Shown here: positions 1-9,747 of the stretch, piece after piece
Layout: every line of letters begins with the position of its first letter
How positions within the stretch are numbered: the stretch's first letter is position 1
Source: a virus
Taxonomy: Duplodnaviria; Heunggongvirae; Uroviricota; Caudoviricetes; Ackermannviridae
IMG/VR virus record: IMGVR_UViG_2974516482_000001
Coordinates: 1 to 31,224 of that record
Direction: 5' to 3' (one strand)
Length of the DNA: 31,224 nt
The notes under the pieces: model-generated
Seen by the model: only the letters and a program-made list of their open reading frames with translations
The model's database searches: none
What the model was told of the DNA's origin: nothing
Program-made: the position numbers and the translations under genes

Positions 1-650
1 CATCAAAGTTGTGTCCAAACGTTACAACTCGCATTCAATGTCTTCGTCACGCCGAATACTTGTCCTCTACGCTCGGACCAAACGAGGCTGGCCGACAGAA
101 ACATAACACCACTCATCACTAGAGCGAGGATGTGGTTGATAGCCACGATGTTACATCTCTGTCGAAGAGTGATCACACTTGTCAGATGATCACTGTTTTG
201 CGAACTCGAGAATACTGCGCCTGTCTCGGGTTTCCCCTTAGTTCGGCCTCTCATTGTTCATCCGGTCAGGGAGCTACCCTTGATGACCAGCTTATATTGA
301 GATCTTCGCCAGCGCCCACCAGTGTCTAGAATGTGTAGGCGTCGAGGTCTGCAAGGCATTGCCCTATTTCATACAACGCTCTCTCAAGTACGCAAATCGA
401 AGTTCTCTGGGCTTAACAGGTTCGACCCAACATGTTGTATATCGCCTAACTTACTCATGGGACGGCCACTTCTGTGTACAGACCTTGAGGGTTAAAAGAT
501 ATACCCAAAGAACTTCGATTTGCGTTGTGGGGGCAAACCCCCACACGGCTACTTCTTTGACAGGGATTGCTAGCCCTGGGGATTCCACTGTTTAAGGCTT
601 TATCCCATAACGCCTGAGGCGCGTTTTAACTTATTGAAGCTTGCATAACT
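1..650 (-). ncRNA. Putative large structured ncRNA of unknown class (continues beyond the window start)
   Basis: No credible ORF. 22-bp stem 390-411/504-525 and 18-bp stem 93-110/147-164; their 5 non-Watson-Crick positions are G.U only on the minus strand. Further helices at 168-175/187-194, 264-288, 526-545 and 561-578. Pseudoknot-type pairings 371-377/434-440 and 383-388/484-489. Boundaries are approximate. Confidence 0.6.
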
Positions 651-656
651 GCAAAC

Positions 657-1020
657 TGATGCGCTGTGAGACACATCTGGGAGGGCACTCTGTGGATTCA
701 TTTTACAGCATCCCGTATAGCGGATACCGACCTCGATCAAGTGCCCTCTCAGATGTCGGCGGGAGCTTATTAATCACACCCTCCCGCCTATTTTTAGTGC
801 GCCGAATTTTGTTATGAGGAATCGGAAGACCTCACTGACTTATAGGCTATTACGCCGCCATCAGAACTTCGGAATCATTAGCAGTTATTTGCTTGGTCAG
901 TTTCTAAAAACCCGCAAAGTCGCATCCAACGAGAACGAAAACCTGTTTGAGTCCTAAACCTACCTGTCTTGGTCTCACATCGCTATGAGTGGCCAGGACT
1001 CAAACAGCTTGCCGTTCAGT
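657..1020 (-). ncRNA. tmRNA-like RNA (mRNA-like domain with tag frame; tRNA-like domain non-canonical)
   Basis: Minus strand 882->850 reads GCT AAT GAT TCC GAA GTT CTG ATG GCG GCG TAA (then TAG) = ANDSEVLMAA**. It is preceded by AAAUAACU and has no start codon or SD. Helix over the stop (GGC-GUAAUA-GCC), pseudoknot-like element at ~802-834, promoter at 1027-1052, length ~364 nt. Confidence 0.65.
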
Positions 1021-1026
1021 GAGTTA

Positions 1027-1052
1027 ACTATACTTTGTAACCCGTTATTGAT
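1027..1052 (-). promoter_or_regulatory. Putative early-type promoter ATCAAT-N14-TATAGT driving the tmRNA-like RNA (TSS ~1020)
   Basis: Same spacing as the TTCAAT-N14-TATAAT motif at 2403-2428; AT-rich upstream tract. Confidence 0.6.
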
Positions 1053-1070
1053 AAAACCTTTTATTTTTGT

Positions 1071-1137
1071 TGACGAGGGTGTGGAATCGAACCACACTTC
1101 TGAGCGCTACCCCGTGTCACCAATGCACCACCTCGCC
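1071..1137 (-). ncRNA. tRNA-like element with truncated anticodon arm (not a decoding tRNA)
   Basis: Minus strand GGCGAGG-TG-GTGCATTGGTGACAC-G-GGGTAGCGCTC-AGAA-GTGTGG-TTCGATT-CCACAC-CCTCGTC-A: 7-bp acceptor stem, D-loop GG, canonical TTCGATT T-loop, 11-nt anticodon arm instead of 17, no encoded CCA. Confidence 0.75.
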
Positions 1138-1539
1138 ATCGATTTGCCGGAACTTACGCATCCGGCCTCGTCCTGTCGGTGTTCTTCTGAATCCGGGAAG
1201 ATCAGCAGGAACTATGAATCAAGTTAATTCAACCAACAGGAATCCTCGTGTTGCCCTTTGACGCAACATTATGAACCCTCTATGAAGACTCATAATGTTG
1301 TCGGCGTGATGGAGATTAGCGCCCCCGACCTCCCCTTATATGTTGGTGTCGACTTGCCAACGGGGTGCTCTCTGATTCTGAGATAATCACGCTACAACAG
1401 GGAGTTTCGTTCTCCGACGGTCAAGTGCGTCCACTGACACCAGCGAGGTGGATATTGACTTATGGAGCCGGAGTCCTCGTCCTAGGACTGTGCTTGGCCT
1501 CAGCCTTTACACCGCTGGTCGCCCGACTCTTTACACCAT
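1138..1539 (-). ncRNA. ~400-nt structured RNA with RNase P RNA-like layout (degenerate core)
   Basis: GAGGACUCCGGCUCCAUAAG (1459-1478) resembles GAGGAAAGUCCGGGCUCCAUAGG. CACCGACAGGAC..GCCGG (1161-1181) resembles CACGACAGAACCCGG. P4-like UCCGGC/GCCGGA, P3-like hairpin 1501-1517, CAGAGAGCACCCCG (1361-1374), 11-bp stem 1264-1274/1290-1300. Comparison is from memory of E. coli M1 RNA. Confidence 0.4.
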
Positions 1540-1546
1540 AAAATTT

Positions 1547-1575
1547 ACTATACTACAGCCCAGCTAATTTGAAAA
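1547..1575 (-). promoter_or_regulatory. Putative promoter TTTTCA-N17-TATAGT (TSS ~1539)
   Basis: Sigma70-like spacing; same TATAGT -10 hexamer as the 1027-1052 promoter. Confidence 0.55.
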
Positions 1576-1592
1576 GTCCTCTCCCCTTTGAG

Positions 1593-1739
1593 CTACACTG
1601 CCCACAGCAGTGCGGACGAACCTTCACTCAAAACCGGATGCGCCGAAGTGGGCAACTGTTTACCGGACTGATCGGGTAGACCCAGGAGAGAGCAGGTAAT
1701 CCCGATCAGGAGGATGAGGAGTAACATCATGTAAAACAT
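1593..1739 (-). CDS. 48-aa small hydrophobic protein (MFYMMLLLILLIGITCSLLGLPDQSGKQLPTSAHPVLSEGSSALLWAV)
   Basis: Below the ORF-track cutoff and translated by hand. Strong SD GGGAGGG 6 nt before ATG; N-terminal ~20-aa hydrophobic helix; TAG at 1593-1595. Confidence 0.55.
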   Translation of the reverse strand: MFYMMLLLILLIGITCSLLGLPDQSGKQLPTSAHPVLSEGSSALLWAV

Positions 1740-1796
1740 AGTGTTCCCTCCCTTCCATGCAACTAACTTTACTACAATTATTTATTGAATAAAGCG

Positions 1797-2366
1797 TTAT
1801 TTTAACACTTCTAACTTCACAACACGACGCAGAAGGTAAACATATTCGCCAGCAGCTTCATGCGTCATATAATGGGTAGAAGGTGTGGAATGATTGTTCT
1901 GGGTTTCTTTTAACCCAACGCGTTCAGCCCAACCATTAATAGAGTTCCCATAGAAACCGATAATCGCGCCGAAATAAATGCGCTGGCTCTCTGGTTCTAA
2001 AATATAGTTGACAGTGAAACAGATGTCAGAACGAATAGACTCCAGTTTCATACCAACACGACCTTCGGAGAATTCGTTACGAACATATAAATGACGGAAA
2101 CGATCGCGCCGCGCTTGTGATGATTCTTCCAATTCTTGTCGGAGTGAAGAAGTTACGTCAATATTAAATGAAAATGTTGGATTTTGTAAATCGGAACGGG
2201 CCAACTCTAACGCAGATTCAACAACGCGACGGAAATTGATACTTTTACCTGTCAGGCGTTTCACTTCATCTGTGATTGTTCCAAAAGGGATTTTCGTGGC
2301 GCGTTCCCCTTCGTATTTTGCCAATAAAGGAATAATGTGTTTCATGATTGCTGTGTTAATGTGCAT
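1797..2366 (-). CDS. Hypothetical protein, 189 aa
   Basis: Long ORF with SD GAGG and its own upstream promoter; no family recognised. Confidence 0.85.
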   Translation of the reverse strand: MHINTAIMKHIIPLLAKYEGERATKIPFGTITDEVKRLTGKSINFRRVVESALELARSDLQNPTFSFNIDVTSSLRQELEESSQARRDRFRHLYVRNEFSEGRVGMKLESIRSDICFTVNYILEPESQRIYFGAIIGFYGNSINGWAERVGLKETQNNHSTPSTHYMTHEAAGEYVYLLRRVVKLEVLK

Positions 2367-2402
2367 TCCGGAGCCTCACCGAATTGATTAAATGTCTCCA
2401 TT

Positions 2403-2428
2403 ATTATATTGGAGATACGTTTATTGAA
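2403..2428 (-). promoter_or_regulatory. Promoter TTCAAT-N14-TATAAT
   Basis: Exact motif on the minus strand; matches the motif I recall being described for Vi01-like phages. Confidence 0.75.
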
Positions 2429-2682
2429 TATAAACGCAGGAATGGCCAATAAAATAATGACAGTGATTATTAATAGGTAAAAACTACTTTTCTACAACAT
2501 CAAGAAACTGTATCTTAACGCGGTGCCCTTCGAGTTGTGAGTGTTAACGAACAACGAGAAGCAGCCTCCATGGCTGCGGAATGGGACTGCCTGTCAAGGC
2601 GGTGTTACGAGCGAGGGCGTCAGCCCCCTCGCGAGTATATTCGAATAAATTAAACGCGCGCGAGCGTTTTGATTCCCGTTGG

Positions 2683-2689
2683 CTAAATA
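2683..2689 (+). promoter_or_regulatory. Late promoter CTAAATA (gp6)
   Basis: The motif recurs upstream of seven structural genes; variant of the T4 TATAAATA late promoter. Confidence 0.7.
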
Positions 2690-2729
2690 TCTTCAACACC
2701 ATATTCAAACTCAGGTGATGGAGATTATC

Positions 2730-4511
2730 ATGGCCACGCAAACAGTTCCTTCACTCGACGTCAGAGCATTTGAATACATTATTAAACAGCGAATGAAAGC
2801 TGATCCCACCTTTAAAGATTATGACTTTGAAGGTTCTGGTCTTAGTGCGATTATTCGTTTGTTGGCATCTGACGCGAACGCCATAGCCTTTATGCAAAAC
2901 ATGCTTAATGGTGAAGGCCATTTGAAGACAGCAAATCAACGTTCAAACGTCGGTTTATCTGCTGCATTTCTTTCCTACACGCCTGACAACTATCGGGCAG
3001 CATACATGTATGTCAACATCAAAGTTACGCCTTATGACGCCAGCACAGCCCCCAATGAGATCATCATGGATCGGCGCGTAATGTTCGTTGGGGCAAAAGA
3101 CGGCAGTTCCTACAACTTTACTGTTGAGAAACCAGTGTCGGCAACGTTGACTGCAGACGGTTATTACATGTTCAACAATGTAAAGTTGGTACAGGGGAAT
3201 TGGTTGTACAAGACATATGATGTTGAAGGAAGCGCGATTTCAACATATACGATTCCTTCTGGGAATGTCGATATCAATCATATGGTCGTGCAAGTACAAG
3301 AATCAGAGTCTTCCGACGTTTCGACGACATATCAACGTTACAACAGTCCATTTGATCTGAGCCAATATGCCTACCTGTATTTCGTAGAATTGGGTATTGA
3401 TGGTCTGTATGTGTTTGAATTCGGAGATGGTTATCTTTCGCGTCGAGTAGAAGATGGGAACGTCATATTCCTTCAATACTTAGAAACTTCTGGTGCTGAT
3501 GGGAATGATATCACAAGCCTGTCATCAGCGTCATCCATAGGCGGGTTTAACCAGGTCGATGTAGAATTGGTTTCCGAACGTAGCGCAGGTGGAGACGATC
3601 CGGAATCTATTGAGGACACTAAACGGCTGGCTCCTTTAGCTTATCAGGCTGATGGTGCTGCGGTTACAGAAACAGATTATGGTGTATTGACTGAAAGGTT
3701 ATTCTCCAACGTCTCCCGAGCTAAATCATATGGTGGTGACACGCTGTCTCCTCCTGATTCTGGCTATGTTTACATCGCTGTTATACCTTCTGTTGGTGAG
3801 ACACTTTCGGACGCTGAGAAGGCCGATATCGTTGCTGCTCTGGACAAGTATAATGTGGGATCTATCACCCCCAAAGTGGTAGATTCCGAGATCACATATA
3901 TCCAAGTCTCAACGACTATATTTTGGGATCCTACTTCTACAGTCTACGTTGAAGAACAGATGAAAGTTGTTGTTGGAAACAGTATCGTTAAATGGGGTGA
4001 AAATAATCTCGGCGGATTTGACCAATTGTTTGACAAAGAAATATTGCAGGAAGCAATTACAAAAATGGAGCGTTCTATTAACTCGAATATTACTTCGGTT
4101 GGTTATAAACGCCATTTCAAACCCGATTATGGAGTCTTAGACAGTTTTACATTCAGTTATGGAAGAAGTATCAAACCTGGTTCTGTGAAAATAACGGGGT
4201 TCAAACCGCTTCCTGCCGAGGTGGATTTCACTTACTACATGCGCGACAATAATGGCGATTTGAACATGTATAAAGTGAATAACAATGACACGACAAAAGA
4301 GTTTTTAGTTCAAAAAACAGGGGTTGTAGATTATGCAAATGGGGTTGTAGACCTTCAGCAGATCACGGTCTCTAACTATAACCCTGAAGGGGTGACCATA
4401 GTCGTGTTACCGGATGGACTGAACCAGAACATACAGGCTACACAAAACCAAGTATTCAAGATTGGTGATGTGGTTGTTAAGCCAGAGGTGCGCTATGTCC
4501 AAAGATCTTAA
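2730..4511 (+). CDS. gp6: Baseplate wedge subunit, T4 gp6-like (593 aa)
   Basis: DYDFEGSGLS and GGDDPESIED..LAP..YQ motifs of gp6/Baseplate_J. Start moved to ATG 2730 (SD GGAG, downstream of the late promoter). Confidence 0.92.
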   Translation: MATQTVPSLDVRAFEYIIKQRMKADPTFKDYDFEGSGLSAIIRLLASDANAIAFMQNMLNGEGHLKTANQRSNVGLSAAFLSYTPDNYRAAYMYVNIKVTPYDASTAPNEIIMDRRVMFVGAKDGSSYNFTVEKPVSATLTADGYYMFNNVKLVQGNWLYKTYDVEGSAISTYTIPSGNVDINHMVVQVQESESSDVSTTYQRYNSPFDLSQYAYLYFVELGIDGLYVFEFGDGYLSRRVEDGNVIFLQYLETSGADGNDITSLSSASSIGGFNQVDVELVSERSAGGDDPESIEDTKRLAPLAYQADGAAVTETDYGVLTERLFSNVSRAKSYGGDTLSPPDSGYVYIAVIPSVGETLSDAEKADIVAALDKYNVGSITPKVVDSEITYIQVSTTIFWDPTSTVYVEEQMKVVVGNSIVKWGENNLGGFDQLFDKEILQEAITKMERSINSNITSVGYKRHFKPDYGVLDSFTFSYGRSIKPGSVKITGFKPLPAEVDFTYYMRDNNGDLNMYKVNNNDTTKEFLVQKTGVVDYANGVVDLQQITVSNYNPEGVTIVVLPDGLNQNIQATQNQVFKIGDVVVKPEVRYVQRS

Positions 4512-6544: not shown

Positions 6545-6555
6545 CTAAATACCCC
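6545..6555 (+). promoter_or_regulatory. Late promoter CTAAATACCCC overlapping an RBS-occluding hairpin (6548-6584)
   Basis: Motif plus 14-bp inverted repeat 6548-6561/6571-6584. Confidence 0.75.
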
Positions 6556-9736: not shown

Positions 9737-9747
9737 CTAAATACCCC
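9737..9747 (+). promoter_or_regulatory. Late promoter CTAAATACCCC overlapping an RBS-occluding hairpin (9740-9774)
   Basis: Motif plus perfect 11-bp inverted repeat 9740-9750/9764-9774. Confidence 0.75.

What the first reader, a model, noticed from the sequence alone, without database searches (positions are those of the whole stretch)
1..650. Large pseudoknotted RNA of unknown class running off the window edge
Dense long helices (22 bp and 18 bp) whose wobble positions are G.U only on the minus strand, which argues for selection at the RNA level. Two loop segments inside the 22-bp stem pair with sequence just outside it (371-377/434-440, 383-388/484-489). A self-complementary 10-mer CAACAUGUUG (428-437) could mediate dimerisation. 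Large ornate phage RNAs near tRNA loci (GOLLD, ROOL) are known to multimerise, but I cannot assign this one to either family.
Basis: partly seen in the sequence, partly recalled or inferred. Interest (0 to 1): 0.72.

Follow-up and report, generated by a model that had tools for sequence, protein, structure and literature searches.

The report
Stem-closed structured RNA cassettes, phage tRNA operon
The flagged stretch of this Salmonella/E. coli Kuttervirus phage holds real folded RNAs kept by compensating mutations, but they form a string of separately inherited cassettes made with the phage's tRNAs, not one giant knotted RNA, and their function is unknown.

Summary
The window opens a 159-kb Kuttervirus (Ackermannviridae) genome. 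Positions 1-650 lie in an ORF-free, minus-strand RNA island between a 189-aa ORF and the phage tRNA genes.

The 22-bp and 18-bp helices are real. The fold is far more stable than shuffled controls. G.U pairs occur on the minus strand only (84 cells against 3).

The core is a ~330-nt two-domain RNA at 525..197. D1 is a 22-bp stem closing about 92 nt. D2 is a five-way junction. Across 17 homologues from four lineages, 96.8% of cells pair and 23 pairs show double compensatory changes (0 of 500 shuffles reach this).

No Rfam family matches, GOLLD and ROOL included.

D2 is an optional arm: full, cut to 51 nt, or replaced by an 11-nt hairpin in relatives. Homology breaks fall exactly at the cassette ends.

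The window edge cuts a roughly 25-bp hairpin, and the contig lacks about 57 nt there.

My best reading is stem-closed RNA cassettes co-transcribed with the tRNAs, probably released at RNase III-type stems. Function is untested.

This scan has already flagged the same island on other phage genomes.

The parts
391..525 (-). D1, the first domain of the core RNA ('unit A'). Helix P1 (21-22 bp) closes an interior of about 92 nt.
   Evidence: Present in Kuttervirus, Taipeivirus, Agtrevirus and unclassified Aglimvirinae. It is kept even where D2 is lost.
504..525 (-). P1 5' arm, pairing with 390-411.
   Evidence: Nine of 22 pairs show changes on both sides, and 96.2% of cells pair. In Agtrevirus four consecutive pairs are swapped.
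390..411 (-). P1 3' arm. Its last six bases (396..391) can alternatively pair with the tail 202..197.
415..436 (-). H3, a hairpin inside D1 with a GGG-containing loop.
   Evidence: It is the MFE of this segment in every lineage, with different stem sequences. 84.8% paired under MAFFT columns.
482..492 (-). H1, a short 3-bp hairpin inside D1. Weakly supported.
   Evidence: 84% paired, no covariation. The rest of the D1 interior could not be resolved to one consensus.
197..389 (-). D2, the second domain: a five-way junction. P2 is 382-389/204-211. Arms are P2a 356-379, P2b 309-347, P2c 250-301 and P2d 219-247 (GAAA tetraloop). The tail is 197-202.
   Evidence: 47 consensus pairs, 13 with compensatory changes. 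Helices pair in 96.5-100% of cells. The single-sequence MFE recovers P2, P2b, P2c and P2d.
165..197 (-). 11-bp hairpin directly after the unit A tail.
   Evidence: I12. Present in the Kuttervirus and Agtrevirus types and replaced in Taipeivirus.
93..164 (-). A second stem-closed cassette. The 18-bp helix 93-110/147-164 encloses two hairpins. One of them (132-146) has an invariant 7-nt loop, CUAUCAA.
   Evidence: The stem of the 132-146 hairpin differs in five genera while the loop stays the same.
58..92 (-). Ultra-conserved 35-mer, 94-97% identical across five Ackermannviridae genera whose flanks are unalignable.
   Evidence: Found only in Ackermannviridae-sized contigs in IMG/VR, plus one 526-bp stray scaffold in GTDB genomes. 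The few substitutions are wobble-compatible with a 6-bp hairpin.
1..20 (-). 5' arm of a roughly 25-bp hairpin that the window and contig edge cuts through. The 3' arm is at the contig's far end.
   Evidence: The contig termini are inverted copies of the same 18-mer. Mansal, CBA120 and fGh-Ecl02 carry about 57 nt more between the arms.
526..694 (-). Upstream module X: several hairpins, ending in an 8-bp GC hairpin at 526-545.
   Evidence: Present only in some Kuttervirus and in Agtrevirus. It varies too little to test the predicted fold.
1027..1052 (-). Promoter-like site that could drive the tmRNA-like module, unit A and the tRNAs. It lies outside the finding.
   Evidence: Sigma-70-type scan. 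It is a 2-mismatch match to the TTCAAT-N14-TATAAT motif reported for these phages (PMC7283392). I found no terminator-like site on this strand before the one after the tRNA cluster.

Best explanation
Positions 1-650 are part of a minus-strand, protein-free RNA operon. It runs from a 189-aa ORF through a tmRNA-like module and several folded cassettes into the phage tRNA genes.

The largest cassette, unit A (window 525..197, about 330 nt), is a two-domain structured RNA. D1 is a Y-shaped domain clamped by a 21-22-bp perfect helix. D2 is a five-way junction attached one base after that helix.

I infer that the whole array is transcribed as one precursor. The long perfect stems (22, 18 and about 25 bp here) would act as folding insulators and as RNase III-type cutting sites that release the cassettes. 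After a cut in P1, the freed 3' strand (UUUGCG) could re-pair with the tail (CGCAAA), giving D2 a 14-bp terminal clamp.

Shown here: the RNA-level structure, the strand, the modularity and the optional status of D2. Inferred: co-transcription, RNase III cleavage and the re-pairing step. What the mature RNAs do is unknown. My guess is that they bind a host or phage protein as a decoy or scaffold rather than base-pair with a target.
For: - Genome context: Kuttervirus, with tRNA-Met, Asn, Ile and Ser on the minus strand just beyond the window edge.
- No conserved ORF. Indels are not multiples of three.
- Stability above shuffles, better on the minus strand.
- Covariation on 17 homologues: 96.8% of cells paired, 23 pairs with double changes against 12.1 in shuffles (0 of 500), score 0.244 against <=0.053 for slid partners.
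- G.U 84 against A.C 3.
- Homology blocks break exactly at 525/526 and 196.
- D2 is full-length, 51 nt, or an 11-nt hairpin in different phages.
- The tail pairing is 100% kept in 17 of 17 sequences, with one compensatory column.
- P1 length is held at 21-22 bp in all lineages.
- A promoter-like site lies upstream, and no terminator-like site appears until after the tRNAs.
Against: - There is no expression data. The only RNA-labelled run held whole-phage contigs at flat depth and says nothing about transcripts.
- RNase III cleavage is inferred from helix length alone.
- The covariation rests on about four or five lineages, so independent events are few.
- D2 is missing in several viable phages, so it is not essential.
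- The tail pairing and the P1 base share one covarying column, so a single historical event could explain both.
- The interior fold of D1 is unresolved.
Confidence: 0.55

Rival explanations
1. This is one large ornate RNA (more than 650 nt) of the GOLLD/ROOL kind. It would fold as a single pseudoknotted molecule and multimerise through the self-complementary 10-mer.
For: - Dense structure beside tRNA genes in a phage.
- The palindrome and both loop pairings exist in this sequence.
- There is a GAAA tetraloop and a possible CCC/GGG long-range contact in D1 that never varies and so cannot be tested.
Against: - No GOLLD or ROOL match, even at E<=10.
- The pseudoknots and palindrome are not conserved.
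- The modules are inherited independently, and D2 is deleted or replaced in relatives.
Confidence: 0.08
2. Unit A is a cis-acting conformational switch. P1-base and the tail compete for the same six bases, and the outcome tunes processing or read-through into the downstream tRNAs.
For: There are two mutually exclusive helices, both kept. The tail pairing is 100% conserved, and a comparable alternative exists even in the D2-less Gloob and EspM4VN versions.
Against: - No riboswitch family matches.
- No terminator or ribosome-binding site is under its control.
- One covarying column cannot separate 'switch' from 'sequential refolding'.
Confidence: 0.12
3. The inverted repeats act at the DNA level, as recombination, replication or packaging signals or as protein-binding palindromes. 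The RNA folds would be incidental.
For: - The breakpoints of module exchange coincide with the stem bases.
- The assembly broke inside one palindrome.
- Perfect repeats of 18-25 bp are unusual in ordinary ncRNA.
Against: - The 84:3 excess of G.U over A.C is expected only for a minus-strand RNA.
- A five-way junction with 13 compensated pairs has no DNA-level rationale.
- The GenBank 'repeat_region' features are only the 21-nt stem arm, not terminal repeats.
Confidence: 0.07
4. These are decaying remnants of tRNA, tmRNA or intron sequences with no present function.
For: - D2 and other modules are dispensable in some phages.
- tRNA-like fragments are nearby.
- An HNH endonuclease gene is inserted in this region in CBA120 and KpS110.
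Against: - Pairing is preserved by compensatory and wobble changes at 74-80% sequence identity across genera.
- Long invariant loops and junctions are kept.
- ARAGORN and Rfam see no tRNA or intron relic in 1-650.
Confidence: 0.1

Closest known systems
Phage T4 stable RNAs C and D (species 1 and 2; rnaC, rnaD) in the T4 tRNA gene cluster
   Same: Both are non-coding, folded RNAs of unknown function, encoded among phage tRNA genes on the same strand and made from the same precursor. From my own knowledge, T4 species 1 RNA was reported to be cut by E. coli RNase III in vitro (Paddock et al. 1976).
   Different: Unit A is 330 nt, against about 120-140 nt for the T4 RNAs. It has two multi-helix domains and an optional arm. 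Expression and stability of unit A are untested.
RNase III processing stems (rRNA operon stalks flanking 16S and 23S; phage T7 early-region sites)
   Same: Both are uninterrupted helices of about two turns (21-22 bp) formed by sequences that flank a functional RNA. Here they sit at the boundaries of units within a polycistronic transcript.
   Different: Cleavage has not been shown. P1 encloses a conserved 92-nt domain of its own. T7 sites usually carry an internal loop.
GOLLD and ROOL large RNAs (Rfam RF01998 and RF03087, accession numbers from memory)
   Same: They are large, ornate RNAs that no function explains, often in phages or prophages next to tRNA genes.
   Different: There is no covariance-model match. 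Unit A is smaller, restricted to three Ackermannviridae genera plus unclassified Aglimvirinae, and modular. No conserved self-complementary element for multimerisation was found.

Membership tests
GOLLD / ROOL (Rfam) | Match to the family covariance model at or near its gathering score | tested here: not met
   cmscan against all 4227 Rfam 15 families gave 0 hits at gathering over the whole window. At E<=10 over 1-3000 it gave only three weak hits, all outside 1-650.
GOLLD / ROOL (Rfam) | One large RNA that is inherited as a unit | tested here: not met
   The modules occur in different combinations, and D2 is full, miniature or absent.
RNase III processing stem | Uninterrupted dsRNA of about 20 bp or more, maintained by selection | tested here: met
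   P1 is 22 bp here and 21-22 bp in all lineages. Nine pairs are compensated.
RNase III processing stem | Lies at the boundary of separately functioning units of one transcript | tested here: met
   Homology breakpoints fall at 525/526 and 196. No terminator-like site lies inside the island.
RNase III processing stem | Staggered cleavage by RNase III in vivo or in vitro | not testable with these tools
   No raw RNA reads cover the region. The one lay gave contigs only.
T4 rnaC/rnaD-type stable RNAs of phage tRNA clusters | Non-coding structured RNA within the phage tRNA gene cluster, on the same strand | tested here: met
T4 rnaC/rnaD-type stable RNAs of phage tRNA clusters | Accumulates as a discrete stable RNA during infection | not testable with these tools
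   No usable transcript data.
tmRNA / permuted tmRNA | Covariance-model match, tag reading frame, tRNA-like domain | tested here: not met
   The only weak tmRNA_permuted hit (20.7 bits against a gathering score of 47) is at 850-1000, outside the finding. ARAGORN finds none.
Protein-coding small ORFs (as annotated in some GenBank records) | Reading frame conserved among homologues | tested here: not met
   The longest frames differ in phase and length between lineages, and indels are 1, 5 and 8 nt.

The most novel reading that the evidence does not exclude
Unit A is a trans-acting phage RNA of a new structural class. In this reading the conserved D1 core, with the add-on D2 five-way junction, binds and neutralises or redirects a host RNA-handling or defence protein. 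Its neighbours would do similar jobs: the ultra-conserved 35-mer, and the hairpin with the invariant anticodon-loop-like CUAUCAA. The Ackermannviridae RNA island would then be an RNA-based counter-defence or host-takeover toolkit, not a set of processing spacers.
Probability: 0.2. Interest if true: 0.8.

Novelty: new variant of a known kind. Interest (0 to 1): 0.5.

Why it matters
Ackermannviridae such as CBA120, Det7 and Vi01 are well-studied phages used in biocontrol and therapy. Yet 2-4 kb of their genomes beside the tRNA genes is annotated as empty or as spurious small ORFs.

This work shows that the largest piece in 1-650 is a 330-nt RNA with a covariation-supported two-domain fold. Nature also supplies a deletion series for D2: full, miniature and absent. 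Together these give a concrete, testable object. One can map its ends in wild-type and RNase III-deficient hosts, delete D1 or D2, and pull down partners.

If the cassettes turn out to act on host proteins, they would extend the short list of phage-encoded functional RNAs. If they are only processing scaffolds, they explain how these phages insulate and swap RNA genes.

Tried and rejected
- **Rfam:** no hit at gathering. At E<=10 nothing fell in 1-650.
- **ARAGORN:** no tRNA or tmRNA in the window.
- **Expression:** the run search returned mostly phage DNA assemblies. The one metatranscriptomic run held whole-phage contigs at flat depth, so it is no evidence either way. Literature searches found no Ackermannviridae transcript maps.
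- **Host origin or mimicry:** no blastn match of 1-760 in 5,426 E. coli genomes. No antisense or sense match above chance to E. coli 16S, 23S, 5S, tmRNA, RNase P RNA or three tRNAs.
- **Terminal-repeat idea:** the GenBank 'repeat_region' features are only the 21-nt P1 arm.
- **Wider family:** nhmmer and the D2 covariance model found nothing in the Limestonevirus, Miltonvirus or Nezavisimistyvirus islands. An exact D2 motif occurs only in Ackermannviridae contigs in IMG/VR. Scans with the neighbouring ORF added few new loci.
- **Neighbouring ORF189:** no Pfam or PDB relative. It matches PHROG 3788, of unknown function, and the protein atlas was blank. I did not fold it.
- **Resemblances from memory that no tool supported:** cobalamin-riboswitch motifs, Y RNA (the UGGUCCGA run in the 35-mer), a retron msr, the 11-nt GAAA receptor, and permuted or class II tRNA for the 35-mer region.
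- **D1 interior:** no single consensus fold could be derived.
- **Module X (526-694):** too invariant to test.

Full report
**Where the window lies**

The window is the first 31 kb of a single 159,128-bp contig. Downstream genes encode a gp6-like baseplate wedge, a P22-type tailspike and further TSP-N tailspikes. The first 2.7 kb is 92-99% identical to Kuttervirus phages such as Mansal, GG32, CBA120 and Det7.

No ORF of 120 aa or more lies in 1-1796. ARAGORN places tRNA-Met, Asn, Ile and Ser on the minus strand at the far end of the contig, which is just past the window's left edge on the circular map. Mansal shows the same order without a break.

So 1-650 sits in a minus-strand, protein-free island between a 189-aa ORF (1797-2366, minus strand) and the tRNA genes.

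**The observation**

The 22-nt inverted repeat 390-411/504-525 is there, with others. Positions 1-650 fold to -238.2 kcal/mol on the minus strand (z -7.45) and -203.4 on the plus strand (z -4.51). For 196-525 alone the figures are z -4.39 and z -2.38.

The 18-bp helix is 93-110/147-164. Four of its pairs are G.U in the minus-sense RNA.

Over all consensus pairs in 17 homologues there are 84 G.U cells and 3 A.C cells. The transcript is therefore minus-sense, and selection acts on RNA, not on DNA palindromes.

**Anatomy of the core, unit A (525..197)**

A blastn module map shows that 196-525 is the block shared most widely. It is 74-80% identical in Taipeivirus (K751, KpS110, IME250), Agtrevirus MK-13 and unclassified Aglimvirinae, while the flanks are replaced.

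D1 (525..391) is closed by P1.
- Nine of P1's 22 pairs carry changes on both sides.
- In Agtrevirus, four consecutive pairs are swapped.
- P1 stays 21-22 bp long in every lineage.
- Inside D1, a hairpin (436..415) with a GGG-bearing loop forms in every lineage from different sequences.
- The rest of the interior holds invariant motifs, but I could not reduce it to one fold.

D2 (389..197) starts one base after P1. Its 8-bp helix P2 closes four arms, P2a to P2d. P2d ends in a GAAA tetraloop on an invariant 23-nt stretch. D2 has 47 consensus pairs, 13 of them compensated, and almost none broken.

On the joint alignment:
- 96.8% of cells pair, against 90.7% in shuffles.
- 23 pairs have double changes, against 12.1 in shuffles (0 of 500 reach the observed value).
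- The covariation score is 0.244, against at most 0.053 when partners are slid by 1-3 columns.

No reading frame is conserved.

Both loop pairings (371-377/434-440 and 383-388/484-489) are complementary in this phage. They are not better than shuffles across homologues, and their central pairs fail in 8-10 of 17 sequences. The second also competes with P2.

The 10-mer palindrome shows no compensation. It is broken in Agtrevirus and in the fGh-Ecl02 type.

GOLLD, ROOL and all other Rfam families give nothing in 1-650.

**Modularity**

D2 is an optional arm.
- In Klebsiella phages RCIP0012 and May it is cut to 51 nt: P2 plus a tetraloop hairpin.
- In Agtrevirus Gloob and EspM4VN an 11-nt hairpin stands in its place.
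- One IMG/VR Kuttervirus contig has D1 fused through a truncated D2 to the next hairpin.

Homology breakpoints recur exactly at 525/526 and at 196.

Module X (526-694) and the hairpins in 93-197 are present in some lineages and replaced in others.

The stretch is thus a string of cassettes, most of them closed by long perfect stems. It is not one molecule's worth of architecture.

**An alternative pairing**

The last six bases of P1's 3' strand (396..391) are complementary to the tail (202..197) as well as to the 5' end. The tail pairing extends P2 to 14 bp. It is intact in 17 of 17 sequences, and its one variable column is compensated (CG in 9, UA in 8). The competing P1 pair is mismatched in 3 sequences. 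A comparable alternative exists even in the D2-less versions.

I read this as refolding after P1 is cut. A switch is the rival reading. One covarying column cannot decide between them.

**Transcription and processing (inferred)**

A perfect TTCAAT-N14-TATAAT motif lies at 2428-2403 on the minus strand, before the 189-aa ORF. This motif is described for these phages in PMC7283392. A 2-mismatch copy, which is also a sigma-70-like hit, lies at 1052-1027 before the tmRNA-like module.

I found no convincing terminator on this strand until a strong one after the tRNA cluster. One precursor is therefore plausible.

Helices of 18-25 uninterrupted pairs are the size RNase III needs. Their position at cassette boundaries fits a processing and insulating role. 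None of this is shown: the only RNA-labelled public run held whole-phage contigs at flat depth.

**The window edge**

The contig's two ends are inverted copies of one 18-mer. Mansal, CBA120 and fGh-Ecl02 carry about 57 nt more between the arms, forming a hairpin of roughly 25 bp. The window edge therefore cuts a hairpin, and the assembly probably lost its loop.

**Function**

I found no similarity or complementarity to E. coli genomes or to host stable RNAs. The neighbouring ORF gave no clue either.

The family is confined to Kuttervirus, Taipeivirus, Agtrevirus and unclassified Aglimvirinae. The Limestonevirus, Miltonvirus and Nezavisimistyvirus islands lack it.

I commit to processed, stem-closed stable RNAs, with protein binding as the most likely activity. 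That last step is a guess.

**Earlier notes of this scan**

The same island has been flagged and followed up several times on other phage genomes, with the same general reading of stem-closed cassettes, the RNase III analogy and the comparison to T4 rnaC/rnaD.

New in this report:
- the two-domain model of unit A, with formal pair counts;
- the natural D2 deletion series;
- the competing tail helix;
- the rejection of the pseudoknots and of the dimerisation element;
- the cut hairpin at the contig edge.

Noticed in passing
window 58-92 (minus strand): This 35-mer is 94-97% identical in Kuttervirus, Taipeivirus, Agtrevirus, Limestonevirus (LIMEstone1) and Nezavisimistyvirus (Bue1), while the surrounding sequence is unalignable. 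It is by far the most conserved element of the island. Its rare substitutions are wobble-compatible with a 6-bp hairpin. Function is unknown.
   Followed up: partly
window 132-146 (minus strand): This hairpin's 4-bp stem differs in five genera while its 7-nt loop CUAUCAA never changes. It looks like an anticodon loop reading AUC. The EspM4VN paper (PMC7283392) lists a 'tRNA-Asp (GAT)' that ARAGORN does not find. It may be this element, but I did not verify that.
   Followed up: partly
window 1-18 and contig end (L002:2612-2629): The contig termini are inverted copies of the same 18-mer. Relatives have about 57 nt between them. The assembly seems to have broken inside a palindromic hairpin and lost its loop.
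   Followed up: yes
window 2403-2428 (minus strand); 6545-6555 and 9737-9747 (plus strand): A perfect TTCAAT-N14-TATAAT motif lies upstream of the 189-aa ORF. Perfect CTAAATACCCC motifs lie upstream of two tailspike genes. Both motifs are reported for this phage group in PMC7283392.
   Followed up: partly
L002:2409-2437 (minus strand; genome about 158908-158936): A TTGACA-17-AATAAT site (11 of 12 matches) ends only 3 nt before the 5' end of tRNA-Met. That is too close for a normal leader, so either it is not used or the tRNA is made almost leaderless.
   Followed up: no
L041:6746-6985 (IMG/VR contig 3300045988_107072): This is a natural deletion variant. D1 is intact, and D2 is cut after about 20 nt and fused to the terminal hairpin. 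All of window 1-370 has no counterpart there.
   Followed up: partly
GenBank records OR844942.1 and others; L050: Records labelled Enterococcus, Pseudomonas and Acinetobacter phage carry near-identical Kuttervirus or enterobacterial-phage sequence. A 526-bp scaffold in a Flavobacterium poyangense assembly holds the 35-mer. These are probably mislabelling or contamination.
   Followed up: no
L003:787-1200 and L005:395-808: In CBA120 and KpS110 an HNH homing endonuclease gene abuts, and slightly overlaps, tRNA-Met. It is absent from this genome.
   Followed up: no
window 1797-2366 and 1593-1739 (minus strand): The 189-aa and 48-aa ORFs upstream of the RNA island are conserved across the family (PHROGs 3788 and 8415). 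They have no known function and no Pfam or PDB relative.
   Followed up: partly
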